This document shows, piece by piece, positions 18,429-34,609 of a stretch of 51,143 bases of DNA. The notes below the pieces were generated by a model. The model did no database searches. It was given only the letters and a program-made list of their open reading frames with translations, and was not told the origin of the DNA. The number at the start of each line of letters is the position of its first letter. Position 1 is the first letter of the stretch. The position numbers were made by a program, and so were the translations under genes. The stretch spans positions 1-51,143 of the forward strand of contig JACQBS010000044.1 of assembly GCA_016194325.1 (NCBI GenBank), given 5' to 3'. This DNA is from Nitrospinota bacterium (lineage in GTDB: Bacteria > Nitrospinota > Nitrospinia > UBA9942).

Positions 18429-21400
18429 ATTTTAGGGGTGGAACATCCCTGACATCTTTTCTACCCCAGTGGACAAGCCAATCAAAGAGGCGGAGGAGTC
18501 TTGAGTTATTCTTCTTCTGGTCAACCCAGTGGCCGCATAATCCAATTGTCCTTGCAATGATGAAGAATCCATTCAATCCCTCAATATCAAATCCTAAGTC
18601 TCTTAAGACTGCCCCCATCATTCCATCAACATTCAGAATCAGATTATCCTTCTTTGCCACTGTTGCCTTTTCTATCTCAAGTGCAAAGTTTAGTATGGGC
18701 GTATTTAACTCATTTTTCCTGATAAACTGGATTGTTGATTGAACCCTTAAATCAGGACTCTTCTTTGAGAACTTCCTGTGCCCTATTCCCGGGACAGGGC
18801 CAACCTCTTTTTTCATATATTCAAGAAATGCAGGAACATCACCTGAATAGTTTTTATAACCATATTCAAAATACCGTGCAGCATCGGTAACTGCACCGCC
18901 AAATCTCGGGCCTATCATTATCAAGCCTGCCGCTACAGATTGTGACAGAGGGATGCCTGCACACGAAGCAATTATTGTTGCCAATGCACCACTGACGCAT
19001 GGACCATTGTCTACAGTCAATATAACCAATCTCTTTATCAGCTGTGCCTCAGCCGGAGAGGGCAGACGGCCTGTTAACTGAAGCCCTATCACATGCTCAA
19101 TCCCATACCCTTTTTCTACAAGGTCAACAGCCCTGTAGCCGTAATAGACCGGCTCATCACCCTTATTAAATGTATTACAGGTAAAGAGTGATGGGATAAC
19201 TACAGATTTTGTCTTTATTAAATCCTCTATTGGTTTCGGCAGTTCGGCATTAGCTGGTTTTGGCTCAACATCCTGAACAATCTTTCCTTCTTTTACAAGC
19301 TTTAAATATACATCCTCAATAATTGGACCAAGGTCGCCAAAGGTAGGAGCCACAATAATACCCGTCTTGTTAAGAAGGTCCATTTTATATCTTGTTGTCC
19401 CTCTTCCACTGGCATCAAGTTTTGCACCTGCATGGCCAAACTTCATCCCCTTCGGCAGTTTTTCCTGACTTATGCCGGCAATTGCTGCTATTACCTTTAT
19501 CCTCCTCTGCTTTGCAGAATACCATTCTGCTACACCTTCCTCTAAATTACCCCCCATCTCTCCGATAATAACAACAGCATGTGTCTGAGGGTCATTTTCA
19601 AAAAATTCCAGATATGTAACATAATCGGAGCCCGGGAATGAATCACCGCCAATACCTATTGCAGTTGTTGTCCCGTCTGCCCATTGTGAGAGCATCCACA
19701 TTATCTCATTGAGCAGTCCACCCGACTTTGTTAACACACCAAAAGAACCCGGACGATGGAGTCGTGATTTAATAAGATTGTCATAGGAACCCCCTGCCAC
19801 TCCCATCCTGCACTCACCGGCAGAGAACATACCAATTGCAGACGGGCCATTAAATATCTTTCCCTTATTTCTTGCAAGGTGAAGGAGTTTCTTTGCATCA
19901 ATCTCAGGGACACCTTCGGTAATCATGGATACAAACCTAATCTGCGGTAAGTTCAATGCCTCTACTGCTGTCCCATATGCCGCCTTTCTGTTTACATATA
20001 TCAATGCCTCATTTATCTCAGGATGCCCGGCAATAGCCTCCTGTGCTGTCTTATATGTCGGCATTAATATGGTCTCGGCACCATAAGGTATTGTCTCATT
20101 CCCGCTGGCGTTTGGGTCTACAAGACAAACAACATTATACGGCAGTCCTGAAAGGTAGCTGAATTCTGCCATCCTCCTCGCAGGATTTAAACCCTGTGCA
20201 CCGTATATCATAATCTTAGAAGTTCTGTTGCAGAATGGCAGTCTCCTCTCCTTCTTAACAGGTGCAGGATAGACAGCCTTCGGTTTCTGAAACTCTGTCT
20301 TCCCTTCCAATGCCATGTTTACAATGGCAGTCAAGGGGGTATTTCTGTCATAAACATAAATATCAAAGCCCTCTTCCCTGAGTGCCCTCATCATGTCAAG
20401 CCCTGCCTTTTCATTAGGACCGCCCCTTCTTACCCATATCTTTACACCATTCAAATGCCCCTGCTCTCTTGCCCAATGAAGCCCCTTAATAATACCCGTA
20501 AAGGTCGCCTTCACATCTGTAAAGTTTGCTATTGCACCTCCAACTATCAAATGCTGAATATTGGGCTGCACTGCAACAATCTTTGTAAGCTCAAAAACCG
20601 CATCTGCCGGAGGGTCACCACTGTATTCTGTATAATTTAATGGGATACCTCCCAACTGGACTACTGCATCAGTATAGAAAACAGATGCACCGCCGCCGGC
20701 AGGAAGTATAGCCACCTTTGGTTTTCCTTCTAAATTTAAAACTGTGAATTTAACTGTCCCCTTGGTTAGATTACTGTTTACTGTCTTTATATGAATCTCT
20801 TCGTCTGTAAGGGGACGGGCAAAGTCAGATAGAAAGTTGAATGTCCAGTCGGAATGCCTGTATTGTGCATCTTCATCTACCATCAGAACTGCATCCATTC
20901 CGACAAAACCATCTTTGGTTATCCCTAACGGATTAATTTCAAGATATGTGGTATCTTCGCCTGTAAATGCCTCGTAAAGTTTCTTTATAAAATCAGATAG
21001 GTTGGATATTTCTTTCTCAGGCACTGATGCCTTCTTTAAAAATTGTTTTAATGCTGAATCATTAACGCCGTCAACAGGAATTGTATATGTATTTACCGAA
21101 TCCCAGTTCTCCTCAATCTCTATCCCGCCCTTTACAGAAAAAAGGACATCGGTTCCCTCCCTGACGGATTGAAGGGCTAAATAATACTCCTTCTGTGTAT
21201 TAACCTTCTCCTCAATAATCACCTCAGAGATAATGACAGGGTGTCCATTTATCTGGACCTGGTGAAAAAGCATCTTCTTTGCCTCTGCAGTTACATCCTT
21301 CGCCGATAGCCCCACCTTAACCAAGCCAAGTTTCCCTCTTCCCTTGAAATTACCATGTGCCTTCACCACATATTCCCTATTGCTGTTCAGTTCTATCTCA

Positions 21401-21498
21401 TCAAGCTGAGCCTTCTCTGTAATCAGCCAGTTTGCAGGCACAGGTATCTGATATTTTTTTAATAATTTTTTACCGAAATATTCGGCAACCTTTGCCAT
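18427..21498 (-). CDS. acl: ATP-citrate lyase, AclB and AclA fused in one polypeptide
   Basis: AclB part: GRGKLGLV, EINPL, AGGGASVFYTD, NYTEYSGDP, GGAIANFT, RRGGPN. AclA part: EGVPE, KSGG, IGIGGD, FGHAGA, GPRFGGAV, PGIGH, LILNVDG. Confidence 0.93.
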   Translation of the reverse strand: MAKVAEYFGKKLLKKYQIPVPANWLITEKAQLDEIELNSNREYVVKAHGNFKGRGKLGLVKVGLSAKDVTAEAKKMLFHQVQINGHPVIISEVIIEEKVNTQKEYYLALQSVREGTDVLFSVKGGIEIEENWDSVNTYTIPVDGVNDSALKQFLKKASVPEKEISNLSDFIKKLYEAFTGEDTTYLEINPLGITKDGFVGMDAVLMVDEDAQYRHSDWTFNFLSDFARPLTDEEIHIKTVNSNLTKGTVKFTVLNLEGKPKVAILPAGGGASVFYTDAVVQLGGIPLNYTEYSGDPPADAVFELTKIVAVQPNIQHLIVGGAIANFTDVKATFTGIIKGLHWAREQGHLNGVKIWVRRGGPNEKAGLDMMRALREEGFDIYVYDRNTPLTAIVNMALEGKTEFQKPKAVYPAPVKKERRLPFCNRTSKIMIYGAQGLNPARRMAEFSYLSGLPYNVVCLVDPNASGNETIPYGAETILMPTYKTAQEAIAGHPEINEALIYVNRKAAYGTAVEALNLPQIRFVSMITEGVPEIDAKKLLHLARNKGKIFNGPSAIGMFSAGECRMGVAGGSYDNLIKSRLHRPGSFGVLTKSGGLLNEIMWMLSQWADGTTTAIGIGGDSFPGSDYVTYLEFFENDPQTHAVVIIGEMGGNLEEGVAEWYSAKQRRIKVIAAIAGISQEKLPKGMKFGHAGAKLDASGRGTTRYKMDLLNKTGIIVAPTFGDLGPIIEDVYLKLVKEGKIVQDVEPKPANAELPKPIEDLIKTKSVVIPSLFTCNTFNKGDEPVYYGYRAVDLVEKGYGIEHVIGLQLTGRLPSPAEAQLIKRLVILTVDNGPCVSGALATIIASCAGIPLSQSVAAGLIMIGPRFGGAVTDAARYFEYGYKNYSGDVPAFLEYMKKEVGPVPGIGHRKFSKKSPDLRVQSTIQFIRKNELNTPILNFALEIEKATVAKKDNLILNVDGMMGAVLRDLGFDIEGLNGFFIIARTIGLCGHWVDQKKNNSRLLRLFDWLVHWGRKDVRDVPPLK

Positions 21499-21668: not shown

Positions 21669-22895
21669 TTATTGTAAATTAGACTCCAATTTCTTTGCAA
21701 CGGCCTTAATGAACTGTTCTGTATCTACATAAGAATTTTCCGGCGGCTTAGGTGTATCATGAATTAACCTTGCAAGGTCGCCGGTAACAGTCCCTGATTC
21801 AATTGTCTTTATATTTGCATCTTCTAAGACATTTGCAAATTTTACCAGATCAGGTGTGTTATCCAGTTCACCCCTTCTCCTCAATGCACCTGACCATGCA
21901 AAGATAGATGCTGTTGGATTGGTTGAGGTCTTTTTACCCTGCTGATGCAAACGGTAATGCCTTGTAACTGTTCCATGTGCTGCCTCTGTCTCCATCTTTC
22001 CATCCGGACTTACCAGAACCGATGTCATTAATCCGAGAGAGCCAAAACCGCTGGCAATCATATCACTCATTACATCTCCGTCACGATTCTTGGTTGCCCA
22101 GAGAACCCCGCCTGGATGTTTTACTATCTGTGCTACTGTATCATCAATAAGTGTATACCAGTATGTGATGCCTGCCTTTTCAAAATCAACTTTTCTTTTA
22201 TTTACCTCTTCCTGAAAGATATTCATAAAAAAAGAATCATACTGTTTTAATATAGTTTGTTTGGCAGAAAACCAGAGGTCAGTCCTTCTCTGTAATGCAT
22301 AGGTGATGCTTGCCTGTGCAAAGGAGCGGACAGATTTCTCTGTATTATGCATACCCATAGTTACCCCCTTACCCTTGAACTCATGAACAGTCAATGCAGT
22401 GGGTTGTGAGCCATCCGCAGGCTTATAAACCAATTCAACTGTCCCCGGTCCCGGCACAGTGAATTCAGTAGCCTTATACTCATCTCCATAGGCATGACGT
22501 CCAATGATTATCGGCTTTTTCCATGAATTTACTGCCGGTTTAATATTCTTGCATATAATAGGCTCTCGGAAAATTGTCCCGTCAAGGTGGGCACGAAGAG
22601 TAGCATTTGGGCTTGGCCATTGCTTGCTGAGCTTATATTCCTCCACCCTTGCCTTGTCGGGTGTAATAGTAGCACACTTTACACCTACGCCATGTTTTGC
22701 TATTGCCCTGGCGGCTTCAAGTGTTATCTGGTCTTTGGTCTCTTCTCTCTTTAGAAGCCCTAAATCATAATACTCCAGATTTACATCAAGATAGGGTGAA
22801 ATCAGATGTTCTTTTATCCATGCCCACATTACGCGCGCCATTTCATCACCGTCAATCTCTACAATAGGATTTTTAACATTAATCTTTTTTGCCAT
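21669..22895 (-). CDS. icd: NADP-dependent isocitrate dehydrogenase (type II)
   Basis: [46 protein letters not shown]. Confidence 0.96.
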
Positions 22896-22917: not shown

Positions 22918-23030
22918 GAACAAAAGAAAAAGATTAAGGAGAAATGGGGAAATTAGGGAAAAGGGGGAAATATTTTTAAAATAATTTTTTCTTTCTCCAT
23001 TTCTCCCTGTTTGTTCTCCCTTTCTCCTCA
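22918..23030. repeat. Inverted nonamer array (GGAGAAATG-type), related to 23511-23675 and 25845-26030 but oppositely oriented
   Basis: gaacaaaagaaaaagattaaggaga (22918-22942) is the exact reverse complement of 26006-26030. Confidence 0.8.
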
Positions 23031-23114
23031 ATGGTTTTTATAATTTCTTTAACAGTAAAAAAATCACCTCCCCAACTCAGATTTAATCAAGGCACTCTGA
23101 TAGTATAAAAATTA

Positions 23115-23510: not shown

Positions 23511-23675
23511 GAAATTATTAAAAACATATAAGGAGAAAGGGGAAAGAAGATGGAGAAATGGAGAGATAAATCAGAGTATCAAAGAGTCAAAGTGTCATAG
23601 TGTCAAAGTTTTTTTACTCTGACACTTTTAATATTTTTCTCCTTTTCTCCCTTTTCTCCATTCTCCTTAATCTTT
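23511..23675. repeat. About 165-bp nested hairpin element, copy 1 (direct repeat of 25845-26019)
   Basis: Outer 9-mer arms (ggagaaa.../...ttctcc) and inner 8-mer arms (gtcaaagt/actctgac); colinear with copy 2. Confidence 0.92.
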
Positions 23676-25830
23676 AAATGGGTTGAGTATCGATTTTGGG
23701 CATTGAGCCGCTTTTTCTATACCTTTTTAATTTCAAGGATATTCCCCTGCCTTCGAAGCTGATCTCAGATACTCCCCTGTCGAATAGTATAGACCTGTAA
23801 GCAATACAATCCTTATTTTTAAGGATTCTGCTCTGAAGGATGAGCTTGCCATTAACTCTTTTAAAACCATGTTCTCCAATTAAATTTTTGTATCCGATAT
23901 AAGGCTGGACAGATTCCATGAGTAGAGATTTAATACCTGAAACCATATCAAAATATGGAATAGTTGTATGCCACATCAGCCGCTCATTTACATAAAACGG
24001 TATCTTTTCAAGTCCTATACTCAGCATATATAACCCGCTTTGTCTGCCCCCTGCATAACCGTAAAACGATACCGAGCGATCACTCCTTGAAAAATAAAGT
24101 CTATCGTTATAAAGACCCGATTCAATGAATAAGATACCCTTTGAATCCATATCATAGCTCCATGTTTCCAGATGTGATTTTCCATTTACTGTCAGTTGAT
24201 AAGCCTGCTTATCTCCAAGCTCAAAACCCACTGTATCCTTTACCGCAGCATCAGACGGTATATTCATAACCGTCTGCCCTTCCTCCGGAATACCAAGAGG
24301 AATATAATATTCACAATTCTCCTGTTTAATCAGAAAGTCAGAGAAACATACAGGTATTGAATGGCTCTCCAATATGCCAAAAGACTGAAACTGTATGTGC
24401 AGATGCGGATAAGGTGCGCAGCCCGAGCTCCCCGCAAAACCTGCAATCTGCCCCTTTTTCACGGCTGTATTGGGTGAAACCTCAATCCCCTGCTGCCTCA
24501 GATGACCGATAACCGAAAAAATGGAGGGGTTATGTTTTATAATGATATGATTTCCCCAACTGAATTCCAGATTTGTCGCGGTTACAGGGTTATCATGAAT
24601 GGAAGACTCCGCAGCAACAACAACCCCATCGCCCACCGATGTTACCGGCATTTTATAGCAGTAATGGTCTTCCAGTTCCTCACCATTGCCTTTATAGATA
24701 CTTCCATTCCTGTCTTTTACTACAAAATCAAGACCCCATTTATATATCCCTTTGTGAGTATGCCTCCCATCTATCCCCTGACTGACAAACCACCAGCCCA
24801 TAAAAGGCAGGATAAAACCATAATCAACCTTTCCGTATCTGTCTTTTTCTCTTAAAAAATGTCCGAAGTTTTTCTCGGGCGAAGAAAATAAGGTAACCCT
24901 GTGCAACCCATTTGCAACAATATTTTGCTGCAGAGAAATGAGCATAAAGAGTGTAACGATATTAAAAGGCGCTGCAAGCACAGGGAGCGAAAGGACATTC
25001 TGAAAAACATTGCCTATTACAACAGAAAATAATGCAGAGATGATAGCGACAGAGAGACTCCACCAATTAGGCACAAAAAAGACTGTACCAAGGGCAAGGG
25101 ATGTCAATATAACATTGAATCCGTTATTTAATATGAATGCTGTATATTGGGGGAAGGTCATGGAAAAGGTAAAACATGATAGAAATGAGATAACTGTAAT
25201 GAATACCATAATCCTTGAGTAGAACAGAAGGGCGATAAGTATCATTAATCCTGCCAATTCATCAGGATTAAAAATTACAAGTCCGATATTTTTCAAAAAT
25301 ATCCTGTGCAAATCCCTGCTAAAAACATGCAGGGACGAGTTTTCAATCTGCAGGCTGTCAACAGGTAAAGTTGCTCCATGAGATGTTCCGTTGCCGCTGA
25401 TTATCAGTAACCATGAAAGCAGAACAAAGGGAATGCTCATCGAGGGGAGTGAATATGCCTTTAAAAATCCCGATATTGCGGCTATAACAAATACGAGGAG
25501 TACCGAAAATAATACAATTAAATAGACCAGATGTATGTCTTTTGAGCCGCTGTAGTAACTTACCGACATTCCAAGGAGAACACCATTAAGACCATACAAA
25601 CCGCTCAGCAGCTCTGCGCGATTATATCCAATATAATAGGCAAAAAGGTTGACGGACAAACACCCTAAAAACCCATTTAAGCCTGCATAGGGATTGATAA
25701 ATGATGATAGAAGAACGATTAGACCAAAGGATCTGCTGTCGGAAAAAAAGATTTGAGAATAACTATGAAGGGCAGCCTCGACGAAAAAGCCTGTCTTTCC
25801 TCTTTTTAAAATATCTTTAATCGCTGCCAT
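23674..25830 (-). CDS. Urea-transporter-family membrane domain fused to an M23 peptidase domain
   Basis: UT-like SQIFF and GLYGLNGVLLG with about 10 TM helices; M23 motifs HTHKG..WGLDF, GNHIII, PHLHIQ; C-terminal extension of unknown type. Confidence 0.85.
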   Translation of the reverse strand: MAAIKDILKRGKTGFFVEAALHSYSQIFFSDSRSFGLIVLLSSFINPYAGLNGFLGCLSVNLFAYYIGYNRAELLSGLYGLNGVLLGMSVSYYSGSKDIHLVYLIVLFSVLLVFVIAAISGFLKAYSLPSMSIPFVLLSWLLIISGNGTSHGATLPVDSLQIENSSLHVFSRDLHRIFLKNIGLVIFNPDELAGLMILIALLFYSRIMVFITVISFLSCFTFSMTFPQYTAFILNNGFNVILTSLALGTVFFVPNWWSLSVAIISALFSVVIGNVFQNVLSLPVLAAPFNIVTLFMLISLQQNIVANGLHRVTLFSSPEKNFGHFLREKDRYGKVDYGFILPFMGWWFVSQGIDGRHTHKGIYKWGLDFVVKDRNGSIYKGNGEELEDHYCYKMPVTSVGDGVVVAAESSIHDNPVTATNLEFSWGNHIIIKHNPSIFSVIGHLRQQGIEVSPNTAVKKGQIAGFAGSSGCAPYPHLHIQFQSFGILESHSIPVCFSDFLIKQENCEYYIPLGIPEEGQTVMNIPSDAAVKDTVGFELGDKQAYQLTVNGKSHLETWSYDMDSKGILFIESGLYNDRLYFSRSDRSVSFYGYAGGRQSGLYMLSIGLEKIPFYVNERLMWHTTIPYFDMVSGIKSLLMESVQPYIGYKNLIGEHGFKRVNGKLILQSRILKNKDCIAYRSILFDRGVSEISFEGRGISLKLKRYRKSGSMPKIDTQPI

Positions 25831-25844
25831 GAAACATTGTAAAA

Positions 25845-26030
25845 GAAATTATAAAAAACATATAAGGAGAAAGGGGGAAGAAGCTGGAGAAATGGAGAGA
25901 TAAATTAGAGTATCAAAGAGTCAAAGTGGCAAAGTTTTTTTTACTATGACACTTTGATACTCTGACACTTTTAATATTTTTCTCCCTTTTCTCCCTTTTC
26001 TCCATTCTCCTTAATCTTTTTCTTTTGTTC
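25845..26030. repeat. Nested hairpin element, copy 2; overlaps the decarboxylase stop codon
   Basis: Same architecture as 23511-23675 with a different distribution of octamer units. Confidence 0.92.
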
Positions 26031-27384
26031 CCTTTCGGGAAAGGGATAATCGTTCAGGGAGTCTCTCTTTTTGCTTTAAATACGATACATCTTCTGGATC
26101 CCGTATTACATCCAATTCTCCATTCTGTCCGATTAGAAGTATCGTCGGTCTCATTCGTATAAACTGTGTCCACTGGGTTAAATTGTATGCGCCAAATGGT
26201 TTTATAACAAGATTATCCCCCCTGTTAAGAATAGGCAGTTTTACCAGATCTCTGATCACATCTATCTGCATGCAGAGAGGACCGTATATTACATGGTCCT
26301 CCATAAAATAACCCCTGTCTTGAACCGGAAGTATCTCAAGGTCATACCAGAAACTCGTAACCATAATATTTACCCCTGCATCGAGAACAAGTGCCCTTAC
26401 ACCTGAGGGCAATCTCTTTGTTGCACCAACCGTAGTTATTAAATATCCTGCCTCATCTACCAATGCCCTGCCTGTTTCAAGAAATAACAGAGGCAGCTTG
26501 TCGTGTGGAAAAGCCCCCAATACTATATTGCAAACGGCTTCTGCATAGGCATCAAAAGTCGGCGCCAGATAACTTGTGGGAAGATATGTTGACTTGAGTC
26601 TGTTCCTCGATGCAAAACCTCCGCCTATATTAAAATACTTAAGGGTTATTCCAAAGTCATCTTTAAGTCGTGATGCGAATGCGCAAAGGCTTATAACCTC
26701 CTGCTGATAGAACTTTGGGTCAAGTATGAATGTTCCGATATGTGAATGTAATCCTGTAAGCTTGAGCTTGGCGCCGGATACAATTCTCTTTGCCACTTCA
26801 TATGCCTGCCCGTTTTCAAGGTTCAAGCCGAATCTGTCCCACGCAGGATACATGCCGGTATCCATGTTTATTCTTATCCCTATTTCCACCTGTCCGCCAA
26901 ATGCAGCGGCTATCTTTTCAAGGGCATAAACCTCGTCAAGACTGTCAATATTTATAACCGCACCATCTCTTACGGCTGTAAGAAGGAAAGTGTCGGGTTT
27001 ATATGGACCATTGACCACTATCCTTTTCCCCTCTATACCTAAGACTTTTGCCATCTCATATTCGTGTTCAGATACCACCTCTGCCCATGAGCCTTCCTGA
27101 TGCATAATGGAGCATATTGCATTCAGATAGTTGGTCTTATACGACCATGCAATCTGAACCTTCGGATATCTGAGGCCGAATGCCCGCTGTAATTCGGCAT
27201 GCCTTTCTCTTATTGTGGATTCAGAAAATACCACAAGGGGAGAACCGTATTCCTTTACAAGTGCCTCTACAGGGACACCATCTATCTCGTAACAGCGGTT
27301 GAGCCCCGACGGCCTTCCGAATTCGTTCATCATCCCCGCCGTATGACGCACTATACTCGGCTTTTCATAACTATCCTTACTCAT
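26011..27384 (-). CDS. Fold-type III PLP decarboxylase (diaminopimelate/ornithine decarboxylase family) with leader-like N-terminal extension
   Basis: WSYKTN (PLP Lys), HSHIG, NIGGGF, ETGRALV, GPLCMQID, GAY; N-terminus MSKDSYEKPSIVRHTAG. Confidence 0.9.
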   Translation of the reverse strand: MSKDSYEKPSIVRHTAGMMNEFGRPSGLNRCYEIDGVPVEALVKEYGSPLVVFSESTIRERHAELQRAFGLRYPKVQIAWSYKTNYLNAICSIMHQEGSWAEVVSEHEYEMAKVLGIEGKRIVVNGPYKPDTFLLTAVRDGAVINIDSLDEVYALEKIAAAFGGQVEIGIRINMDTGMYPAWDRFGLNLENGQAYEVAKRIVSGAKLKLTGLHSHIGTFILDPKFYQQEVISLCAFASRLKDDFGITLKYFNIGGGFASRNRLKSTYLPTSYLAPTFDAYAEAVCNIVLGAFPHDKLPLLFLETGRALVDEAGYLITTVGATKRLPSGVRALVLDAGVNIMVTSFWYDLEILPVQDRGYFMEDHVIYGPLCMQIDVIRDLVKLPILNRGDNLVIKPFGAYNLTQWTQFIRMRPTILLIGQNGELDVIRDPEDVSYLKQKERLPERLSLSRKGTKEKD

Positions 27385-28435
27385 AGTGTAATTCTCCCTC
27401 TACATTTAAAGTCTCCAGTTGTTTTATATTCAGTATATTCTCATCGGTATACCTCGTAAATATTACCCCGATTTTATAATCCTTATTTGCCTTTTTTATC
27501 CCCTCACCAAGTGCAAGCCTGACCAATAGCCACGGAAGGTTTACTCCGGCTGCCTTTGAAAGATACACCCATGCAGGAAAACGGGGATTTACCTCTAAAA
27601 GGTAGAATTTGTCGGTCCTCTTTTTTTTCAATATCTCAAGCTCTACAGGACCCCGCCACTCTGTTGCATCAAAAAATCGTCCGGCAATCCTGTCAAGTTC
27701 GTCGTCCCTGATGGTAACCCCTGCCCATCCCTTTCCCTTATCCGTTGTGAGGAGTTTTCTCATACAGACCATCCCGACCATGCCCCCCTTTCCATCACCT
27801 ACAGCCGTAACATTGAATTCATCCCCCTCCATATATTTCTGGAGGATTATGGGCATTCCCCATCTGTCGCTGATCTTTAAGATGAATTTATTTACCTCAT
27901 CCATGTTATGGGCTTTATATGCCTCATAGAATATTCCTTTAACCATAATGGGGAAGCCTAATTCTTCTGCTGCCTTACCTGCCTTGTCTACTTCCTTTAT
28001 AACACGACCGGCAGGAACCAAAATATCGGCGTCCTTTTCAAGCCCACCGATATTTGTCTTTGAGCACATAGACAATTGTTCCTTTGTTGGTATAAAGGTC
28101 GTAATACCACTCCGATGAATTTTATCTTCAATATTTATGAAGTTATATATCTCGGAATCCAAAGTAGGTATAATCATATCCATAGCCGTTTTTTCATGAA
28201 TCTTCAGCAATCTCTGGAGGAGACAATCTGCACCTTCCGAAGGGTAAGGCAGAAGATAAACATGCTTGAAATAACCCATCTTATAAAGACCTGCATCGAG
28301 AGAATCGTATCCCAATCCTATCCCCTGCACCCTTCCCGCAGAACCCTCTTTTATACAGCGTATAACAGGTATGCCGGGTGCAGGGCTGTCTGTTGAATTG
28401 AGACCTGTAACGCCAATGGTAATATTACGACGCAT
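27377..28435 (-). CDS. ATP-grasp carboxylate-amine ligase
   Basis: GFPIMVKG, ILQKYMEGDEF, ELEILK, LLEVNPRFP. Confidence 0.9.
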   Translation of the reverse strand: MRRNITIGVTGLNSTDSPAPGIPVIRCIKEGSAGRVQGIGLGYDSLDAGLYKMGYFKHVYLLPYPSEGADCLLQRLLKIHEKTAMDMIIPTLDSEIYNFINIEDKIHRSGITTFIPTKEQLSMCSKTNIGGLEKDADILVPAGRVIKEVDKAGKAAEELGFPIMVKGIFYEAYKAHNMDEVNKFILKISDRWGMPIILQKYMEGDEFNVTAVGDGKGGMVGMVCMRKLLTTDKGKGWAGVTIRDDELDRIAGRFFDATEWRGPVELEILKKKRTDKFYLLEVNPRFPAWVYLSKAAGVNLPWLLVRLALGEGIKKANKDYKIGVIFTRYTDENILNIKQLETLNVEGELHYE

Positions 28436-28676
28436 CTATCTTAAATCCCATACCTCTCATAAGGGACACAAACTCCTTCACATCTTCCATTGCAGTCCCT
28501 TTATCAGTATCAAATTCCTGCGATAAATGATTCACAGCTTCCGTAAGACTGATCCCATCTTGTAATTTCCTTACTATAAAAAGGGCCGTCCTATTAAGCC
28601 AGAATGTCTGTCCTGTTGAGGGGTCGAAGACAAAACCTGTATCGCTTACTGCTATATCCGTTAATTGTCTGTTCAT
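28425..28676 (-). CDS. Stand-alone PqqD-family protein / RiPP recognition element
   Basis: GFVFDPSTGQTFWLNRTALFIVRKL...LSQEFD....AMEDVKEFVSLM: three beta strands plus three helices; 83 aa. Confidence 0.88.
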   Translation of the reverse strand: MNRQLTDIAVSDTGFVFDPSTGQTFWLNRTALFIVRKLQDGISLTEAVNHLSQEFDTDKGTAMEDVKEFVSLMRGMGFKIDAS

Positions 28677-28699: not shown

Positions 28700-31135
28700 T
28701 CATTTCCCTTTCATCTCATTCAACCCTAATAGGGAGCCGGCATATCCCGGGGCAAGCTGAAGCGATTTATTAAACATGGCAACTGCCTTTTCTTTATTTT
28801 CCATCTTCAGATAACCCCATCCCATACCATCATATGGCGCCGCCCAAATATCGTCAGCCTTATGCATACCCGCAAGCCTTTCAAATGTCTTAATGGCACT
28901 GGAATAGTCCTTCAGATTATAATATGCCCAGCCAAGAGTGCCGATAGCCTCGCTATATTTATCAAAACCATATTCCTTATCAGGGGCATTCTTGAGAAAT
29001 GCCGATAATTCCTTCACCGTATCTTCGTATTTCTTATCTTTAAAATAGATATAACCGGTAAGGAGACCGATGTCCTGATAGCTCACGCCCTTTTCCCTGA
29101 TGCCCTTTGCCTTCCGGAGGGCATTTTCGTATTGACCATAATTATAATACGCCCATGCCATAGTGATAAGGAGGTCATTCAGCTCTTTCTTCTCATTCAT
29201 CAGGCTGACAAGCTCACTATTGTCAACACCATGGGGATAGAGATTGATAGCAGAAGATAGATTTGCCTTCCCCTCATCGGTTCTACCCAGTTTTATCAGC
29301 GAGAATCCGACCCCTCTGTAAGGCTCCGCCAGATTGGGATTAATCTGTACGGCGCGTCTAAACTCAATAAGACTGTCGCCGTAGCTCCCTGTCTTGAAAT
29401 AACTCCAGCCGAGGACTATTTCGGCATCCAGGTCAAGAGGAAATGCCTTCACAGCCTCTTTCAGATTCTTGATTGCCTCCAAATAATTGTTCTTACCGTA
29501 CAGGGCATATCCCAAACCAAGTCTTGCATCGGAATCGGTATTACTTGCCGCGATAATGGCTCTGAAATGTTTCTCGGATTCATCATAATTCTTCAATCTG
29601 AGCTTGCTCCACCCGAGCCCCCTTTCTACCTGCTGCCTTGCCTCATCGGTAATATCCTTCTTCTTTGCCTCCTCATTAAAATTCTCTATAGCCTTATCAT
29701 ACAATCCGAGATAGTATAACCTCCATCCTTCCCCTGCCTTTCCAAGTTTTGCATTACTTACCGCAGATAGGCCGGAATAGGCGTCGAGATATTTCGGATC
29801 AAGCTTGATTGCCTTATTAAACTGCTCCTCGGCATCGGGATATCTTTTCATGCTATAGAAGACCCAACCGAGTCCACTGTTCGCATCGGACCAGTCAGGA
29901 TTATTTTTAAGGACGTTTTGAAATTCTTTCATCGCATTCTGATAATCGTTTTTTAAAAAATATGCCCATGCCATAGTTGTCCGTGCATTACTGTATAAGC
30001 TATATGCCCCTGACTGGTCGTAAACAGTCTCAAATACTGCGGGGAGGTTTGGGTTAATTGAAAGGGATTTCCCGCAATATTCAATAGCAGTATCATACTT
30101 CTTTAGCTTATAATCTGTATAACATGCCCCCCTCATCAGGCTTGCATTATCCCTATCTTTCTTGATCCCCCTCTCGAATATATCAAAACCCTCCTTGTTG
30201 AGCCCCGCAAAATATAGCGCCCATCCCAAATCCTGATAAACGGATTTGTATTCAGGAGATCTTTCAATCGTCTGCAAAAACTCGTCATTCGTCAGATAGC
30301 CGGGTAAAAGAGACATCACGGAATAGAATTCATTTAAGGCGCCCTTTTTATCGCCTTTCTTGTCAAGGGAGAGGGCAAGTCCGTAATGCGGGTCTGCAAG
30401 ATAGGGGTTTATTGCTATCTGTTTTTTAAAGCCATCTATTGCCTTTGCCGTTTCTCCCTCCCTGTAATAACACCATGTTATCTGATTTTCTATATCATAC
30501 TGTTTTGCATTAAATGTTAAGGAGCGATTAAATGCATCGAGAGCCTTTTTGTAATTTTTCATCTGAAACTCGACAAGCCCTATCCCTTTGTATGCATCAT
30601 AATTCTCCCTTTTTTCATTAGATCTCTCAAAATGCCCTTTTGCCTCGCTATACCCCTTATTGCCATAATAACTATAACCCAGTCCAAGATGAAGACGCCA
30701 CAACTCTTTCCCTGGTAACAGCGGATCCTTACCCTCTATTAAATTTTTAAAGGAGCCTATTGCCCCTTTGAAATCACCCGCATAATACTGATTCCATGCC
30801 TTATTAAAGTTCTCGTATCTCTTTTCGATAACAGCGGCACTCCCCTGTTTTGCACCTATATGAAAAGGAGATTTTCTTAAAATGTCCTGAAAGAGATTAT
30901 CTGCCTCGGTAACCTTCCCCATCATAAACATACTCCATGCCATTCCATTCAGGGCATCAAAATTCTTTTGGTCGGCTTTATATATCCTCTCAAACTCTGT
31001 ATATGCCTCACTGTATTTCTTCTCCTCATAAAGCCTTCCTCCCTTCTTAATATCCTGGGCAAAACCGGGATTACTAAAAGCCACAGCCGACAAAACCATG
31101 AAAAATACACTTGCTGCAATAAATTTTTTAAACAT
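28700..31135 (-). CDS. Secreted long TPR-repeat protein
   Basis: Signal peptide (..GFA-Q) and many TPRs with a recurring LGW/LGY-x-Y motif. Confidence 0.9.
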   Translation of the reverse strand: MFKKFIAASVFFMVLSAVAFSNPGFAQDIKKGGRLYEEKKYSEAYTEFERIYKADQKNFDALNGMAWSMFMMGKVTEADNLFQDILRKSPFHIGAKQGSAAVIEKRYENFNKAWNQYYAGDFKGAIGSFKNLIEGKDPLLPGKELWRLHLGLGYSYYGNKGYSEAKGHFERSNEKRENYDAYKGIGLVEFQMKNYKKALDAFNRSLTFNAKQYDIENQITWCYYREGETAKAIDGFKKQIAINPYLADPHYGLALSLDKKGDKKGALNEFYSVMSLLPGYLTNDEFLQTIERSPEYKSVYQDLGWALYFAGLNKEGFDIFERGIKKDRDNASLMRGACYTDYKLKKYDTAIEYCGKSLSINPNLPAVFETVYDQSGAYSLYSNARTTMAWAYFLKNDYQNAMKEFQNVLKNNPDWSDANSGLGWVFYSMKRYPDAEEQFNKAIKLDPKYLDAYSGLSAVSNAKLGKAGEGWRLYYLGLYDKAIENFNEEAKKKDITDEARQQVERGLGWSKLRLKNYDESEKHFRAIIAASNTDSDARLGLGYALYGKNNYLEAIKNLKEAVKAFPLDLDAEIVLGWSYFKTGSYGDSLIEFRRAVQINPNLAEPYRGVGFSLIKLGRTDEGKANLSSAINLYPHGVDNSELVSLMNEKKELNDLLITMAWAYYNYGQYENALRKAKGIREKGVSYQDIGLLTGYIYFKDKKYEDTVKELSAFLKNAPDKEYGFDKYSEAIGTLGWAYYNLKDYSSAIKTFERLAGMHKADDIWAAPYDGMGWGYLKMENKEKAVAMFNKSLQLAPGYAGSLLGLNEMKGK

Positions 31136-31168: not shown

Positions 31169-32245
31169 TCAATTACCTTTAGAGATTCCAAGCTCTTTTA
31201 ACCCTGCCTGAGAGCTGTAGTAATCAGGAAATAGCTCAAGGGCATTTTTAAATGCCTGCTCGGCATCGGATTTTTTGCCCAGCTTTAAATAGCTCCAGCC
31301 CAATCCATCGTATATATCGTATGAATACCTATATTGACTCAATCCCTTTTCAAGCTTATTGAGTGCATCTTTATAATTTCCCTTCTTAAATAATACCCAT
31401 CCCTCTGCTGCGTAAACCTCTGACCACGCGGGATAAAGAGATTCTATCTTGCCGTATTCCTCCATAGCATCATCATAATCTCCCGACCTGAGCATCTCAT
31501 TTCCTCTGGATAAGACCCCCTCTTTTATTATGGAAAGCTGTTGTTTTCCTGCAATAGCCCCCTGACTTTTCATATCCTTTTCAATTGCCTTGTTATAATA
31601 GTAATCCGCATTATTATAATCCTTATCGCCAAAATACCCGTTTCCGAGGGCGACATAAATATCTACACTCTCTTTTCCCGAAAGCCTCTGTGCATTTTTA
31701 AATGAGCCGATCGCGGTCTGAAAATCGAATTCCGCCATAGCTATATAACCGAATATCAGATTGCTGTCAGACGACATAGGGTTCTCCGATAAAGCGGTAA
31801 CAAGATATTTTTTCGCATTATTTAGATCGCCTAATTTAAAATAGCTGTAGGCAATACCTTCCAATGCCCCTGTGTGATTTCTGTCAATCTCACTTAATTT
31901 CTTAAATGTCTTAAGGGAATCCATATATCTATTGAGCTTGAAGTATGTCCATCCGACCCCTTCGAGGGAATCGGCCGTCCCGCCGTCCAATCTACGAAGT
32001 GTCTCAAATTTTGACATGGCATCATGATACCTCTCCATTTTGAAATAGCTCCAGCCTGCCATTAAAAGGGCATATCTGTTGTCAGGATTTATAGATAAGG
32101 CATGCTCATAGTTTGCCGCGCTCTCATCATATCTGCCAAATGTAAAGTTTCGATTACCATAAGATGTATAATGATGAGAAGTGCTGCATCCAAAATTAAT
32201 GAAAAAAATGAACAGAATAATTAAAACAACACTCGTCTTTTTCAC
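31169..32245 (-). CDS. TPR-repeat lipoprotein
   Basis: MKK-hydrophobic-NFGC lipobox; TPRs with GWSYFK motifs. Confidence 0.85.
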   Translation of the reverse strand: MKKTSVVLIILFIFFINFGCSTSHHYTSYGNRNFTFGRYDESAANYEHALSINPDNRYALLMAGWSYFKMERYHDAMSKFETLRRLDGGTADSLEGVGWTYFKLNRYMDSLKTFKKLSEIDRNHTGALEGIAYSYFKLGDLNNAKKYLVTALSENPMSSDSNLIFGYIAMAEFDFQTAIGSFKNAQRLSGKESVDIYVALGNGYFGDKDYNNADYYYNKAIEKDMKSQGAIAGKQQLSIIKEGVLSRGNEMLRSGDYDDAMEEYGKIESLYPAWSEVYAAEGWVLFKKGNYKDALNKLEKGLSQYRYSYDIYDGLGWSYLKLGKKSDAEQAFKNALELFPDYYSSQAGLKELGISKGN

Positions 32246-32259: not shown

Positions 32260-33909
32260 TTAAAACTTGTAAGCAACAAAAAACTCCATCTGGCTGGCAC
32301 TATCAGAAGAGCCATCGGCTCGAACAGTCTGGCTCATGGCGGCGCCCCAATTGGAGGCAGGATCACTTCTAACGGTTTTATAGTATTCGCCGGGCATAAA
32401 ATACCCGCCGTGCACACCGAATGTAACACCCTTTGTAATAGAGTATGTCGCATATACATCTATCTCATTGCCTAAATCTTTTGAAAGGTATCGGATGTTA
32501 TTATTTGCATCAAGCCCGATGCCGGCATTCATTGCCTTAAGGCTCCAATAGTCTATCATTATAAAAGATGTCTCAGAAGGTGTTATATTTAATCCAATGT
32601 TGTAGGCGCTTATGTTCTCCCATACATGAGGGTCATTAAAAGCTCCAGGCCGCCTGATGCCGTAGTTCATAGTATAGCCTCCTGCCATTGCAACCACAGG
32701 AACGGGTGCTATATGTGCGAAGGAATCTACAAGATTTGTATTTAGTGGAGAAAAGACCGTGAATGCGTTATTTTCCGTTCTTTTCAATGAGCCTGCATTA
32801 TATTTTTGATAGTCATCTGTGCTGACTTCGTTTCCTGAGGCAATGACCAGCTTCGCCCGCGGTGTAAACATCCCAAAATGTCCATTTACCGCTGTATGAA
32901 TAAGATAACCCTTATGTTTTATATCCCCCCAATTCTGATTATCCTCCCCCTTTGTCTCACCCGCATTCTTAGCTGCCTCAAGCTCAAAAGTAAAATAGGG
33001 AGAATCTACAACCGCACTTAAGCCGTAAGTGTAAATCTCATCTCTTTTAGCCCTGAAGGATGTATTACTATTTGCAAAATATCCATGCTGCTTTCTTTTT
33101 TCAAAGGCTGTCCTGTCATAGAGCAGTCCAATATATGGCTGAAGTGTAACAATAGCTGTTTTGTTGTTGACAGGTCTTAATTTTAAATCTGCTGCCACCA
33201 TATAGGCATCGCTATCGGCAGACCTCCCCAGCCACTTGGAATGGGTATCTTTCCTTATCTCGGAATTAACATTTTCAACATCGAGGATTGAATATCTCAG
33301 CCTGACGATATCTTCATATGAATAGGTTGCCCCATAATTATTATACTGCCCGCCAAGGGCATATCCATTGCCAATCACATAAGGAGATTGCCCTATCTGT
33401 ATGCTATTACTTAATGTTGGATAAAACTTTAGCCATACTTCGCTGATCCATGGATATAAAATTGAATCAGACCCTCCTTTCTTAACACGGGAACCCTCAA
33501 CCGCGGTTGTAATCTCATTAAGAGGCGCAGCATAATGAGAAGGACCTTCGCTCGTAATTTTAATAAAGAATTGATGCCTTGATTTATAAATAATCTTAAG
33601 TGGGATATTATAAATGTATGAGAAATAGCCCAATTCGTCACCCCCGCTGTTTTTCAGGTCGCCCGTGTTATTTGCCCTGTTATATGACAATCTGATATCC
33701 GGAGTGATACCCAGCTTCCAGTTCTCTTCAAGGGTTTGAGCTGAGATTGCAAAGGCATCAAAAAAGAAACATGGAACAAACAGTGTTATCAGAGCCAGAG
33801 TTATATTGATCCGGCACTTTCGCCCTCCCATAAAATTTTTACTATAAGAAAAAAGTGCTGACTGAAAGACAAATTGCATAATTTGGGTTAATATTTTTTT
33901 ATCTCGCAT
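32260..33909 (-). CDS. Outer-membrane beta-barrel, alginate-export (AlgE)-like; start uncertain
   Basis: Signal-like segment ending DAFA, amphipathic strands, DLGNEIDVYATY, GGYFMPGEYY, terminal VAYKF. Confidence 0.7.
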   Translation of the reverse strand: MRDKKILTQIMQFVFQSALFSYSKNFMGGRKCRINITLALITLFVPCFFFDAFAISAQTLEENWKLGITPDIRLSYNRANNTGDLKNSGGDELGYFSYIYNIPLKIIYKSRHQFFIKITSEGPSHYAAPLNEITTAVEGSRVKKGGSDSILYPWISEVWLKFYPTLSNSIQIGQSPYVIGNGYALGGQYNNYGATYSYEDIVRLRYSILDVENVNSEIRKDTHSKWLGRSADSDAYMVAADLKLRPVNNKTAIVTLQPYIGLLYDRTAFEKRKQHGYFANSNTSFRAKRDEIYTYGLSAVVDSPYFTFELEAAKNAGETKGEDNQNWGDIKHKGYLIHTAVNGHFGMFTPRAKLVIASGNEVSTDDYQKYNAGSLKRTENNAFTVFSPLNTNLVDSFAHIAPVPVVAMAGGYTMNYGIRRPGAFNDPHVWENISAYNIGLNITPSETSFIMIDYWSLKAMNAGIGLDANNNIRYLSKDLGNEIDVYATYSITKGVTFGVHGGYFMPGEYYKTVRSDPASNWGAAMSQTVRADGSSDSASQMEFFVAYKF

Positions 33910-34063: not shown

Positions 34064-34609
34064 ATGATTACAATTGGTGAAAAATTAAAGGCGTTAAGAG
34101 AAAGTCAGAAATTATCCCTCAGGGATTTAGGGGAAAAGGTAGGTCTATCTGCAAGTTTTTTATCCCAGTTAGAATTGGGGCAGGTGTCACCATCCATTGC
34201 ATCCCTTGAAAATATTGCCTCTGCCTTAAATATACACATCACATATTTTTTTGACGAACCGGAAAAGACAGACAGTGTTGTAATGAGAAAGAATGAGAGG
34301 AGGAGGATATACAGCAAAGGCTCAAAGGCAATTATACAGCCGCTTGCACATGAGATAAGCAAGAAAAAAATTGAGCCATTTATGCTGACGCTGGAGGTTG
34401 GTGGAGAGGGCGGAGAGCACCCATACTCATCCCGACATGGAGAGGAGTTTGGAATTATTATGCAGGGAAGGGTTAAGTTCACACTTGAACAGAATGAATA
34501 TACGCTGGAAGAAGGGGATAGTGTATATTTCAACTCCACAAAACCTCACAATTGGAAAAACATGGGAAAGAAAGAGGCAATAATTATATTGGTGATTCCC
34601 GCACCATAA
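34064..34609 (+). CDS. XRE-family HTH regulator with cupin domain (PuuR-like)
   Basis: IGEKLKALRE..LSLRDL....LSASFLSQLELGQVSPS; cupin HGEEF, EGDSVYFNSTKPH. Confidence 0.93.
   Translation: MITIGEKLKALRESQKLSLRDLGEKVGLSASFLSQLELGQVSPSIASLENIASALNIHITYFFDEPEKTDSVVMRKNERRRIYSKGSKAIIQPLAHEISKKKIEPFMLTLEVGGEGGEHPYSSRHGEEFGIIMQGRVKFTLEQNEYTLEEGDSVYFNSTKPHNWKNMGKKEAIIILVIPAP

What the first reader, a model, noticed from the sequence alone, without database searches (positions are those of the whole stretch)
27310..28676. Decarboxylase N-terminus mimics a RiPP leader (YEKPSI) next to a stand-alone RRE, with no precursor gene visible
Seen: the enzyme begins MSKDSYEKPSIVRHTAGMMNEFGRP, an extension of about 30 aa before the catalytic fold. 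Intergenic gaps in the cluster are too short or repeat-filled to hold an obvious precursor. Established: lasso-peptide leaders use YxxPxL to dock on PqqD-like RRE (B1) proteins. Inference: RRE-leader recognition is repurposed either to assemble a decarboxylase-ligase complex for substrate channelling, or to deliver the enzyme's own N-terminus to the ATP-grasp ligase for modification. Either would be a non-canonical use of RiPP machinery and is the strongest candidate for a new enzymatic system here.
Basis: partly seen in the sequence, partly recalled or inferred. Interest (0 to 1): 0.85.

Follow-up and report, generated by a model that had tools for sequence, protein, structure and literature searches.

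The report
Decarboxylase with built-in RiPP-leader tag
A decarboxylase found in a very widespread but unstudied gene cassette carries at its front end a short, strictly conserved tag that looks like the docking signal of lasso-peptide precursors, and it sits beside the small protein that normally reads such signals, so the peptide-recognition protein probably grips an enzyme here instead of a peptide.

Summary
On the minus strand lie a PqqD-type RRE (28425-28676), an ATP-grasp ligase (27377-28435), a PLP decarboxylase (26011-27384) and a urea-transporter/M23-peptidase fusion (23674-25830). The decarboxylase is not the housekeeping LysA, which lies on another contig. Its nearest solved relative is FslC.

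Its first 24 residues form an add-on module, Y-E-[KR]-P-x-I-x-[RK]-x3-G-x2-N-K-F-G. The module is absent from LysA, FslC and BtrK and has low confidence in the AlphaFold model. Its YxxPxΦ part is present in 174 of 175 anchored relatives, against 16 of 700 other ORFs. The one exception comes from a genome in which no PqqD or ATP-grasp was found.

PqqD lies beside the decarboxylase in 130 of 133 loci. It resembles lasso B1 proteins most closely. No separate precursor ORF recurs in 161 neighbourhoods. Natural ligase-decarboxylase fusions keep the tag internally.

A complex prediction gave only weak support (0.47; best control 0.01).

Best reading (about 0.5): the tag is a cis "leader" that docks the enzyme on the RRE-ligase pair. 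The product is unknown. I found no paper on this cassette.

The parts
28425..28676 (-). Stand-alone PqqD-family RRE, 83 aa
   Evidence: PF05402 scores 46.2 bits (cut-off 23.4). NF033530 (lasso PqqD chaperone) scores 47.1 bits, below its cut-off of 70. The family profile's best solved hits are TbiB1 (5v1u, E 1.8e-12) and TfuB1 (6jx3, E 2e-11). Its stop overlaps the ATP-grasp start by 11 nt.
27377..28435 (-). ATP-grasp ligase, 352 aa
   Evidence: PF15632 ATPgrasp_Ter 44.5 bits and PF02786 24.8 bits. PRK12767-type 'CPS-like' models match far below their cut-offs, and no graspetide-maturase model matches at E<=0.01. Adjacent upstream of the decarboxylase in 131 of 133 loci with enough upstream DNA.
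26011..27384 (-). Fold-type III PLP decarboxylase, 457 aa; a paralogue of LysA and closest to FslC
   Evidence: PF02784 and PF00278. LysA model 199 bits against cut-off 297.9; FslC model 212.5 against 500. Best PDB hit is 7kh2 (FslC), E 2.1e-55, sharing the C-M-Q motif after the catalytic Cys where LysA has C-E-S/T. The PLP lysine and other core residues are invariant in 28 relatives.
27313..27384 (-). N-terminal 24-residue module (residues 1-24) of the decarboxylase: Y6-E-K-P9-x-I11 ... G17 ... N-E/K-F-G23
   Evidence: Frequencies in 181 unique sequences: Y 0.97 (otherwise W or F), P 1.00, hydrophobic residue at position 11 0.98, G17 0.96, N 0.90, K 0.93, F 0.91, G23 0.91. Residues 24-33 are variable. 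The spacing from the aromatic residue to G23 is 17 in 163 of 164. pLDDT is below 50.
27352..27369 (-). YxxPxI core (residues 6-11), the proposed RRE-binding segment
   Evidence: The complex prediction gave weak support: 0.47 against a best control of 0.01.
23674..25830 (-). Urea-transporter-fold membrane domain fused to an M23 metallopeptidase domain and a beta-rich C-terminal domain, 718 aa
   Evidence: PF03253 172 bits and PF01551 46.4 bits. The AF2 model has mean pLDDT 84. Foldseek matches dvUT (3k3g, TM-target 0.85) and ShyA/LytM. The M23 His/Asp positions are invariant in 26 relatives. It follows the decarboxylase in 117 of 123 loci with enough downstream DNA.
28700..31135 (-). TPR-repeat protein, 811 aa, whose N-terminus looks by eye like a signal peptide (no predictor run), immediately upstream of PqqD
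   Evidence: Many TPR Pfam families. TPR proteins also flank the cassette in other loci, mostly downstream.
31169..32245 (-). TPR protein, 358 aa, whose N-terminus looks by eye like a lipoprotein signal (no predictor run)
   Evidence: TPR families.
32260..33909 (-). 549-aa protein with a faint Alginate_exp match; possibly an outer-membrane barrel
   Evidence: PF13372 scores 22.8 bits, below its cut-off of 25.2. No homologue was found in the 80 related loci, so its membership in the system is unproven.
25841..26010 (.). 170-nt intergenic repeat element with nested inverted repeats, between the decarboxylase and UT/M23 genes
   Evidence: A second copy with 87% identity lies at 23511-23666, just after the UT/M23 stop.

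Best explanation
The decarboxylase carries a built-in, leader-like docking tag. Shown: residues 1-24 are an add-on, probably flexible module joined to the catalytic fold by a variable linker. Inferred: its Y-x-x-P-x-I segment is bound by the neighbouring PqqD-type RRE in the way lasso B1 proteins bind the YxxPxL of their precursor leaders. Inferred: the RRE-tag pair docks on, and possibly switches on, the translationally coupled ATP-grasp ligase, so the three proteins work as one unit.

For the chemistry I infer an order of ligase first, decarboxylase second. The ATP-grasp enzyme would make an amide between a carboxylate and the side-chain amine of a diamino acid. The FslC-like decarboxylase would then remove the alpha-carboxylate. 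The product would be handled by the membrane UT channel/M23 peptidase protein and the TPR envelope proteins. No separate precursor peptide is involved. The identity of the product is unknown.
For: (1) The tag is under strong selection and specific to this clade. [YWF]xxPx[ILVMF] occurs in 174 of 175 anchored relatives. The extended motif occurs in 195 of 203; five of the eight misses still have YxxPxI, two are truncated, and one is L035. In a second set of 80 metagenome loci, 78 have it and the other two N-termini were not captured. Background is 16 of 700. LysA, FslC and BtrK do not align to it, nor does the genome's own LysA. Lower-identity sister groups among the 50%-cluster representatives either start directly at the fold or carry their own YxPPxΦ tag.

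(2) Co-occurrence. PqqD is found in 130 and ATP-grasp in 131 of 133 loci with at least 1.7 kb upstream, across more than 15 phylum-level groups named in record titles.

(3) Natural exceptions behave as predicted. In the genome of L035 (G001) neither PqqD nor ATP-grasp was found, and the YxxP part has decayed while the G..NKF part remains. In G002 the three genes are dispersed and the tag is kept. Three other cyanobacterial genomes with PqqD keep the tag. A divergent clade whose neighbours are P450, methyltransferase and GNAT genes instead of UT/M23 keeps both PqqD and the tag.

(4) The PqqD profile's best solved relatives are the lasso B1 RREs TbiB1 and TfuB1. TfuB1's cleft holds the YxxP motif plus a Leu of the leader (passages read in PMC6784204). 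Many RRE groups bind W/Y/L-xx-P/L/I sequences (passage in PMC12710340), and W variants occur here.

(5) The tag has pLDDT below 50 in the monomer model, while the fold averages 83.5. It is followed by a variable linker.

(6) Complex prediction with PqqD and decarboxylase residues 1-45 returned WEAK support. The score was 0.47 and the best of 3 controls 0.01. The mark was reached by 58 of 80 solved complexes and 2 of 110 mismatched pairs. Scores of 0.60 or under came from only 7 of those 80 solved complexes and from both mismatches that passed. The runs agree in at least 90% of contacts, and the partner's pLDDT is at least 51.

(7) No recurrent small ORF with a YxxP start was found in 161 neighbourhoods.

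(8) Order of the chemistry. This family and FslC share C-M-Q where LysA has C-E-S/T. That the LysA Glu binds the distal ammonium is recalled, not tested here.
Against: No experiment was done. The complex score is only 'weak support', and it may reflect the model's memory of solved B1-leader complexes (5v1v, 6jx3). No interface was returned.

Seven natural ATP-grasp-decarboxylase fusions keep the tag internally, and one of them has PqqD directly upstream. Simple tethering of ligase to decarboxylase therefore cannot be the whole function.

The PqqD-less case is a single genome, a MAG, and its UT/M23 gene looks split into two frames. The loss of the tag may be part of general decay.

The second half of the module (G..NKFG) is as conserved as the first and is not explained by RRE binding.

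A homodimer model was not made, so a role of the N-terminus at the partner subunit's active site is not excluded.

The substrate and product are guesses by analogy.
Confidence: 0.5

Rival explanations
1. The N-terminal module is an intrinsic functional part of the decarboxylase, such as an active-site lid across the dimer, an oligomerisation arm or an autoinhibitory arm. Its likeness to a leader is then coincidental. PqqD would serve the ATP-grasp enzyme alone, or bind a tiny or distant peptide that has not been found.
For: The G..NKFG half is as conserved as YxxPxI and has no RRE precedent. The tag is retained in covalent ligase-decarboxylase fusions. 21/22-residue YxxP precursors were overlooked for years in the fosfazinomycin cluster (passage in PMC13622209), so absence of an ORF is weak evidence. 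Only a monomer was modelled.
Against: The YxxP half decays exactly in the genome where no PqqD was found, while G..NKF stays. The tag is low-confidence in the model and followed by a variable linker. No recurrent small ORF was found in 161 loci down to 10 aa. The RRE is most similar to B1 proteins that read this very motif. Sister decarboxylase groups function without any such N-terminus.
Confidence: 0.25
2. The tag is a true leader and the decarboxylase is itself a processed substrate. The RRE presents the N-terminus, the cytoplasmic M23 peptidase domain cuts at F22|G23, and the ATP-grasp ligase may act on the new end. That would be lasso-like logic (RRE + protease + ATP-dependent amide ligase) applied to a whole enzyme, for example as zymogen-like activation or release.
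For: The register matches lasso precursors. There, YxxPxL spans positions -17 to -12 and Gly1 starts the core (passage in PMC10368454). Here the conserved Gly lies 17 residues after the aromatic residue in 163 of 164 sequences. The cassette holds a protease domain with conserved metal-site residues and an ATP-dependent ligase. M23 enzymes favour Gly-containing bonds (recalled, not tested).
Against: No acidic residue is conserved 7-9 positions after G23. No modifiable side chain in the tag is invariant. The clade without UT/M23 still keeps the tag. In fusions, cleavage would merely separate the two enzymes. That the M23 domain is cytoplasmic is inferred from UT topology, not shown. The matching spacing could be coincidence; roughly 1 in 15 is my own estimate.
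Confidence: 0.12
3. The cluster is a cryptic lasso-peptide or graspetide RiPP cluster whose precursor lies elsewhere in the genome.
For: There is a B1-like RRE and an ATP-grasp enzyme.
Against: No PF13471 (B2 protease) match was found in the 89.85%-complete genome. PF00733 gave only two marginal matches of 22-24 bits on other contigs. No graspetide-maturase NCBIfam model matched at E<=0.01. No precursor-like ORF was found. The cassette's constant partner is a decarboxylase, not a RiPP tailoring set.
Confidence: 0.05

Closest known systems
Lasso-peptide B1 RRE bound to the precursor leader (TbiB1-TbiA, TfuB1-TfuA; PDB 5v1v, 6jx3)
   Same: A small stand-alone PqqD-fold protein whose nearest solved relatives are these B1 proteins. 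The ligand motif is aromatic-x-x-P-x-Leu/Ile. A conserved Gly lies 17 residues downstream, as from Tyr(-17) to Gly1.
   Different: The motif is the N-terminus, or in fusions an internal linker, of a 457-aa enzyme rather than of a short precursor. There is no B2 protease, no Asn-synthetase-like cyclase and no Thr(-2).
FslA/FslC rhizoferrin pathway (N-citrylornithine decarboxylase FslC, PDB 7kh2)
   Same: FslC is the closest solved relative of the decarboxylase (E 2.1e-55) and shares the C-M-Q active-site motif. The logic is an amide-forming ligase followed by decarboxylation of the amino-acid moiety.
   Different: The score is far below the FslC model's cut-off (212.5 against 500). The ligase here is an ATP-grasp enzyme, not an NIS synthetase. 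FslC has no YxxP tag, since its alignment starts at residue 35, and no RRE partner.
Butirosin BtrI/BtrJ/BtrK (carrier protein, ATP-grasp ligase, PLP decarboxylase)
   Same: An ATP-grasp ligase is paired with a fold-type III decarboxylase that acts on a tethered amino acid. BtrK is a detectable relative (7ru7 and 2j66, E about 1e-21). A small adaptor protein sits in the operon.
   Different: The small protein is a PqqD-fold RRE, not an acyl carrier protein. No conserved attachment residue was seen on PqqD or on the tag.
PqqD-PqqA-PqqE and other RRE-dependent enzyme complexes
   Same: An RRE acts as a bridge that binds a peptide and an enzyme at once. This part is recalled; PqqD structures appear as weaker hits.
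   Different: The bound peptide would belong to a second enzyme of the pathway.
Engineered leader-fused RiPP enzymes (leader fused in cis to LctM or LynD) - recalled, no paper read here
   Same: A leader sequence is covalently attached to an enzyme.
   Different: Those are laboratory constructs in which the leader activates its own enzyme. Here the arrangement is natural, ancient and widespread, and the tagged enzyme is not the RRE-bearing one.

Membership tests
PqqD / RRE family (PF05402) | Sequence match above the curated threshold | tested here: met
   46.2 bits against a cut-off of 23.4.
PqqD / RRE family (PF05402) | Binds a peptide recognition sequence through the beta3/alpha3 groove | tested here: inconclusive
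   Complex prediction gave weak support, 0.47 against a best control of 0.01, and no interface was reported.
Lasso-peptide biosynthetic cluster | B1 RRE of the lasso type (NF033530) | tested here: not met
   47.1 bits, below the cut-off of 70, although TbiB1 and TfuB1 are the nearest solved relatives.
Lasso-peptide biosynthetic cluster | B2 transglutaminase-fold leader peptidase (PF13471) | tested here: not met
   No match in the own genome, which is 89.85% complete.
Lasso-peptide biosynthetic cluster | Asn-synthetase-like lasso cyclase (PF00733) in the cluster | tested here: not met
   Only two marginal matches (23.7 and 21.9 bits) on other contigs, in frames of 285 and 232 aa.
Lasso-peptide biosynthetic cluster | Short precursor with a YxxPxL leader, Thr(-2) and Gly1 | tested here: not met
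   No recurrent small ORF was found. The only YxxPxI sequence is the enzyme's own N-terminus, and position -2 is K or E.
Graspetide (ATP-grasp RiPP) cluster | ATP-grasp maturase of the MvdC/D or related NCBIfam families, plus a precursor | tested here: not met
   None of those models appears among the 20 NCBIfam hits at E<=0.01. No precursor was found.
Diaminopimelate decarboxylase LysA (TIGR01048) | Score above the equivalog cut-off | tested here: not met
   199 bits against 297.9. A true LysA scoring 527 bits lies on contig C34.
N-citrylornithine decarboxylase FslC (NF041039) | Score above the cut-off | tested here: not met
   212.5 bits against 500. It is the best PDB relative all the same.
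Fold-type III PLP decarboxylases (PF02784 and PF00278) | Both domains present with conserved core residues, including the PLP lysine | tested here: met
   107.3 and 37 bits. The K83, H215, GGG, E303, C371 and Y400 columns are invariant in 28 relatives. The roles of these residues are recalled.
M23 metallopeptidases (PF01551) | Domain match and conserved metal/catalytic His and Asp | tested here: met
   46.4 bits. H359, D368, H443, H476 and H478 are invariant in 26 relatives. The first motif has a longer H...D spacing than the canonical HxxxD (the canonical form is recalled).

The most novel reading that the evidence does not exclude
The tag is a genuine lasso-register leader carried by a whole enzyme. 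The RRE presents the decarboxylase's N-terminus to the cassette's own M23 peptidase and ATP-grasp ligase. The enzyme is then cut at F22|G23 and/or ligated. This would be a protein-sized 'RiPP substrate', or a leader-gated zymogen, controlling a pathway found in hundreds of bacterial species.
Probability: 0.12. Interest if true: 0.9.

Novelty: new variant of a known kind. Interest (0 to 1): 0.72.

Why it matters
RREs are treated as markers of ribosomal peptide natural products, and genome miners look for a short precursor next to them. Here a B1-like RRE is locked to a metabolic enzyme that carries the recognition sequence itself. The cassette is spread over Bacteroidota, Myxococcota, Aquificota, Nitrospirota, Leptospira, Planctomycetota, cyanobacteria and more.

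If the docking is real, three things follow:
- It is a natural case of a leader in cis on an enzyme.
- It explains one class of 'orphan' RREs that have no precursor.
- It gives a handle (the tag, PqqD, the fusions) for working out an unknown, widely conserved pathway that ends at a urea-channel/M23 membrane protein.

The claim can be tested directly with a 24-residue peptide and an 83-residue protein.

Tried and rejected
Chance resemblance was rejected for the conservation (174 of 175 against 16 of 700).

Wrong start codon was rejected. An SD sequence sits at the right distance, homologues start at the same place, and the internal Met17/18 has no spaced SD.

Housekeeping LysA was rejected.

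PqqD as a LysW-like carrier with a conserved C-terminal acid was rejected. The C-termini vary and no conserved attachable residue exists.

Covalent scaffolding on the tag was judged unlikely.

A link between the G..NKFG half and UT/M23 was considered. The strict sub-motif occurs in 89 of 117 UT-positive loci and in 2 of 5 UT-negative loci. That is too few to say, so I dropped it as evidence.

The motif tally inside (159 of 159) is unreliable. It read through upstream non-coding sequence and counted a spurious match in L035. I use instead.

In one search, 28 of 203 sequences failed my anchor pattern and were left out of the count. By eye most show the motif. P0013 is a fragment and L051 is cut by a contig end.

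Foldseek on the UT/M23 model found only the UT and M23 folds. The C-terminal beta-rich domain stayed unassigned.

Pfam found nothing for the roughly 300-aa protein that follows UT/M23 in other loci.

Literature searches for this cassette, or for an RRE that binds an enzyme's own terminus, found nothing relevant. Only PMC Creative-Commons papers and bioRxiv were searched.

What I read of each paper:
- Passages in PMC12710340, PMC12998343, PMC6784204, PMC13622209 and PMC10368454.
- Outline and abstract only of PMC13097080.
- Supplements were closed. Table S3 of PMC12998343 (UT-M23 proteins) and the RRE group tables of PMC12710340 may bear on prior sightings, and I could not see them.

Full report
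WHAT IS THERE. All genes of interest are on the minus strand:
- a 549-aa protein with a faint alginate-export match (32260-33909);
- two TPR proteins (31169-32245 and 28700-31135);
- an 83-aa PqqD-family protein (28425-28676);
- a 352-aa ATP-grasp ligase (27377-28435);
- a 457-aa fold-type III PLP decarboxylase (26011-27384);
- after a 180-nt repeat-filled gap, a 718-aa fusion of a urea-transporter-fold membrane domain, an M23 peptidase domain and an unassigned C-terminal domain (23674-25830).

The PqqD stop overlaps the ligase start by 11 nt. The ligase stop overlaps the decarboxylase start by 8 nt. The decarboxylase ATG has a GAGGGAG box 9 nt upstream.

THE OBSERVATION. The extension is real. 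Profile and PDB alignments to LysA, FslC, BtrK and ornithine decarboxylases begin at query residue 31-49 in 33 of 34 matched PDB sequences. The genome's true LysA (527 bits, contig C34) lacks the segment. In the AlphaFold2 model (mean pLDDT 83.5) residues 1-4 and 7-26 have pLDDT below 50. One YxxPxI on its own would mean little, since 16 of 700 unrelated ORFs have such a pattern in their first 25 residues.

THE TAG IS CONSERVED.
- The 120 best homologues (52-100% identity; source names include Nitrospirae, Deltaproteobacteria, Elusimicrobia, Chlorobiales, Myxococcota and the Aquificota species Phorcysia) nearly all begin with the same module.
- In a 28-sequence alignment Y6 and P9 are invariant.
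- I pooled 120 proteins, 80 genome loci and 3 cyanobacterial loci. Of these, 175 could be anchored on the downstream GSP motif, and 174 carry [YWF]xxPx[ILVMF]. The distance from the aromatic residue to the Gly of N-K-F-G is 17 in 163 of 164.
- Frequencies in 181 unique sequences: Y 0.97, E 0.86, K or R 0.92, P 1.00, hydrophobic residue at position 11 0.98, R or K at position 13 0.92, G17 0.96, N 0.90, K 0.93 (E in the window's own clade), F 0.91, G23 0.91. Positions 24-33 are variable, and the distance to the fold varies by up to three residues.
- A second, independent set of 80 metagenome loci gave 78 with the tag. The other two N-termini were not captured.
- Among representatives of 50%-identity clusters, alignments that include residues 1-6 stop at about 43% identity. 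Below that, some sister groups start directly at the fold (for example P0145 and P0150). Others carry a different YxPPxΦ N-terminus (P0143, P0149, P0155).

THE CASSETTE IS CONSERVED. Of 133 loci with at least 1.7 kb upstream, 131 have the ATP-grasp gene and 130 the PqqD gene next to the decarboxylase. Of 123 loci with at least 2.5 kb downstream, 117 have the UT/M23 gene. TPR proteins usually follow. Record titles span Bacteroidota, Ignavibacteria, Myxococcota, Desulfobacterota, Nitrospirota, Aquificota, Thermotogota, Calditrichia, Planctomycetota, Verrucomicrobia, Gemmatimonadota, Leptospiraceae, cyanobacteria, Melainabacteria, Gammaproteobacteria and others.

NATURAL EXPERIMENTS.
(a) L035/G001, a Pseudanabaena MAG. 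Neither PqqD nor ATP-grasp was found anywhere in the genome. The decarboxylase N-terminus has lost Y and P but keeps G-L-M-N-K-F-A-G. The caveat is that its UT/M23 gene appears split, so this may be a decaying locus, and it is a single case.
(b) Three other cyanobacterial genomes, out of 301 sampled, have the family. All three have PqqD adjacent and an intact tag.
(c) In G002 (Aquificota) the three genes lie on different contigs and the tag is intact.
(d) Seven natural ATP-grasp-decarboxylase fusions (836-934 aa) keep Y/W-x-x-P-x-Φ inside a long low-complexity linker. The contig of one of them has PqqD abutting the fusion's start.
(e) A divergent clade (L125, L129, L130, L135) is followed by P450, methyltransferase and GNAT genes instead of UT/M23. 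It keeps PqqD and the YxxPxΦ tag, while the NKFG half is looser.

THE RRE. A profile of 29 cassette PqqDs finds the lasso B1 proteins TbiB1 (E 1.8e-12) and TfuB1 (E 2e-11) as best solved relatives, ahead of PqqD itself. Passages I read say three things. The YxxP motif plus a conserved Leu of lasso leaders fits the hydrophobic cleft of TfuB1 (PMC6784204). YxxPxL spans positions -17 to -12 with Gly1 starting the core (PMC10368454). Many RRE groups bind W/Y/L-xx-P/L/I sequences (PMC12710340). The decarboxylase tag therefore matches the motif. It also matches the Tyr-to-Gly register of 17.

BINDING PREDICTION. Complex prediction with the PqqD alignment and decarboxylase residues 1-45 returned 'weak support'. 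The score was 0.47 and the best of three controls 0.01. The mark was reached by 58 of 80 solved complexes and 2 of 110 mismatched pairs. Scores of 0.60 or under came from only 7 of those 80 and from both mismatches that passed. The runs agree in at least 90% of contacts, and the partner's pLDDT is at least 51. Because B1-leader complexes are solved, this may show likeness rather than binding.

NO PRECURSOR. Two scans of intergenic small ORFs found no family recurring beyond near-identical contigs. The first covered 12-110 aa with the full motif. The second covered 10-90 aa with [YW]xxP in the first 19 residues, over 161 neighbourhoods including the window. The largest family covered 4 loci. 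The fosfazinomycin story, in which 21/22-mers were long overlooked (PMC13622209), is a reminder that this is not proof. The genome has no PF13471 match and only marginal PF00733 matches elsewhere. This is not a lasso cluster.

WHAT THE ENZYMES MAY DO. The decarboxylase's closest solved relative is FslC, the N-citrylornithine decarboxylase (E 2.1e-55). Both have C-M-Q after the catalytic Cys, where LysA has C-E-S/T. BtrK, which decarboxylates a carrier-bound glutamate, is also a relative. By analogy, the ATP-grasp enzyme makes an amide on the distal group of an amino acid and the decarboxylase then removes the alpha-carboxylate. This is inference, and the substrate is unknown. The M23 domain keeps its His/Asp positions. 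From the ten-helix UT topology and the basic N-terminus I infer that it faces the cytoplasm, but this was not tested. UT-M23 fusions have been noted in print without a function (PMC12998343).

VERDICT. The best reading is a cis leader-like docking tag read by a B1-like RRE, which assembles or activates a ligase-decarboxylase unit. I give the docking component about 0.5. The fusions show that tethering alone is not enough to explain the tag. The lack of an invariant reactive residue argues against ligase modification of the tag. Cleavage at F22|G23 remains an open, bolder possibility. I found no paper describing this cassette or an RRE that reads an enzyme's own terminus. The searched library excludes most subscription journals.

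Noticed in passing
window 25841-26010 and 23511-23666 (partial copies near 23018-23050 and 18397-18424): A repeat element of about 165 nt with nested inverted repeats flanks the UT/M23 gene on both sides as two direct copies (87% identity). It is possibly a REP/MITE-like element.
   Followed up: partly
P0121-P0124 and P0126-P0128; L100:487-3126: Natural single-chain ATP-grasp-decarboxylase fusions (836-934 aa) have long Pro/Ala/Ser/Glu-rich linkers that still contain the Y/WxxPxΦ tag. P0125 looks like a frameshifted decarboxylase-UT read-through.
   Followed up: partly
L125, L129, L130, L135 (metagenome loci): A divergent PqqD-ATP-grasp-decarboxylase trio is followed by cytochrome P450, TylF-like methyltransferase and GNAT genes instead of UT/M23. 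This is a natural-product-like context for the same three-gene module.
   Followed up: partly
P0140, P0143, P0149, P0155 (50%-cluster representatives): More distant decarboxylase subfamilies (40-42% identity) begin with their own Y-x-P-P-x-Φ N-terminus and lack the NKFG half. Other sister groups have no N-terminal extension at all. Their genome contexts could not be fetched.
   Followed up: no
L181 (own genome, contig C149:4649-7849), ORFs 1186-1428, 1432-1707, 1843-2577: A second PqqD-family gene (PF05402, 53.4 bits) lies between an 80-aa ORF that looks by eye like a twin-arginine signal and a 244-aa protein that appears by eye to hold a P-loop motif and has no Pfam match. It is an unrelated, uncharacterised RRE system.
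   Followed up: partly
window 18427-21498 and 21669-22895 (minus strand): A single-chain 1023-aa ATP-citrate-lyase-type protein (ATP-grasp, citrate-binding, CoA-ligase and citrate-synthase domains) lies next to an isocitrate dehydrogenase. This suggests a reductive TCA cycle in this organism.
   Followed up: no
window 34064-34609 (plus strand): An HTH_3 plus cupin regulator lies divergently upstream of the outer-membrane/TPR/PqqD gene string. It is a candidate regulator of the operon.
   Followed up: no
ATP-grasp protein, residues about 60-66 (window about 28238-28258): The ligase itself holds a conserved Y-L-L-P-Y-P stretch, also seen in the fusions. It lies inside the folded N-domain and is probably not a docking motif, but it fits the YxxP pattern.
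   Followed up: no
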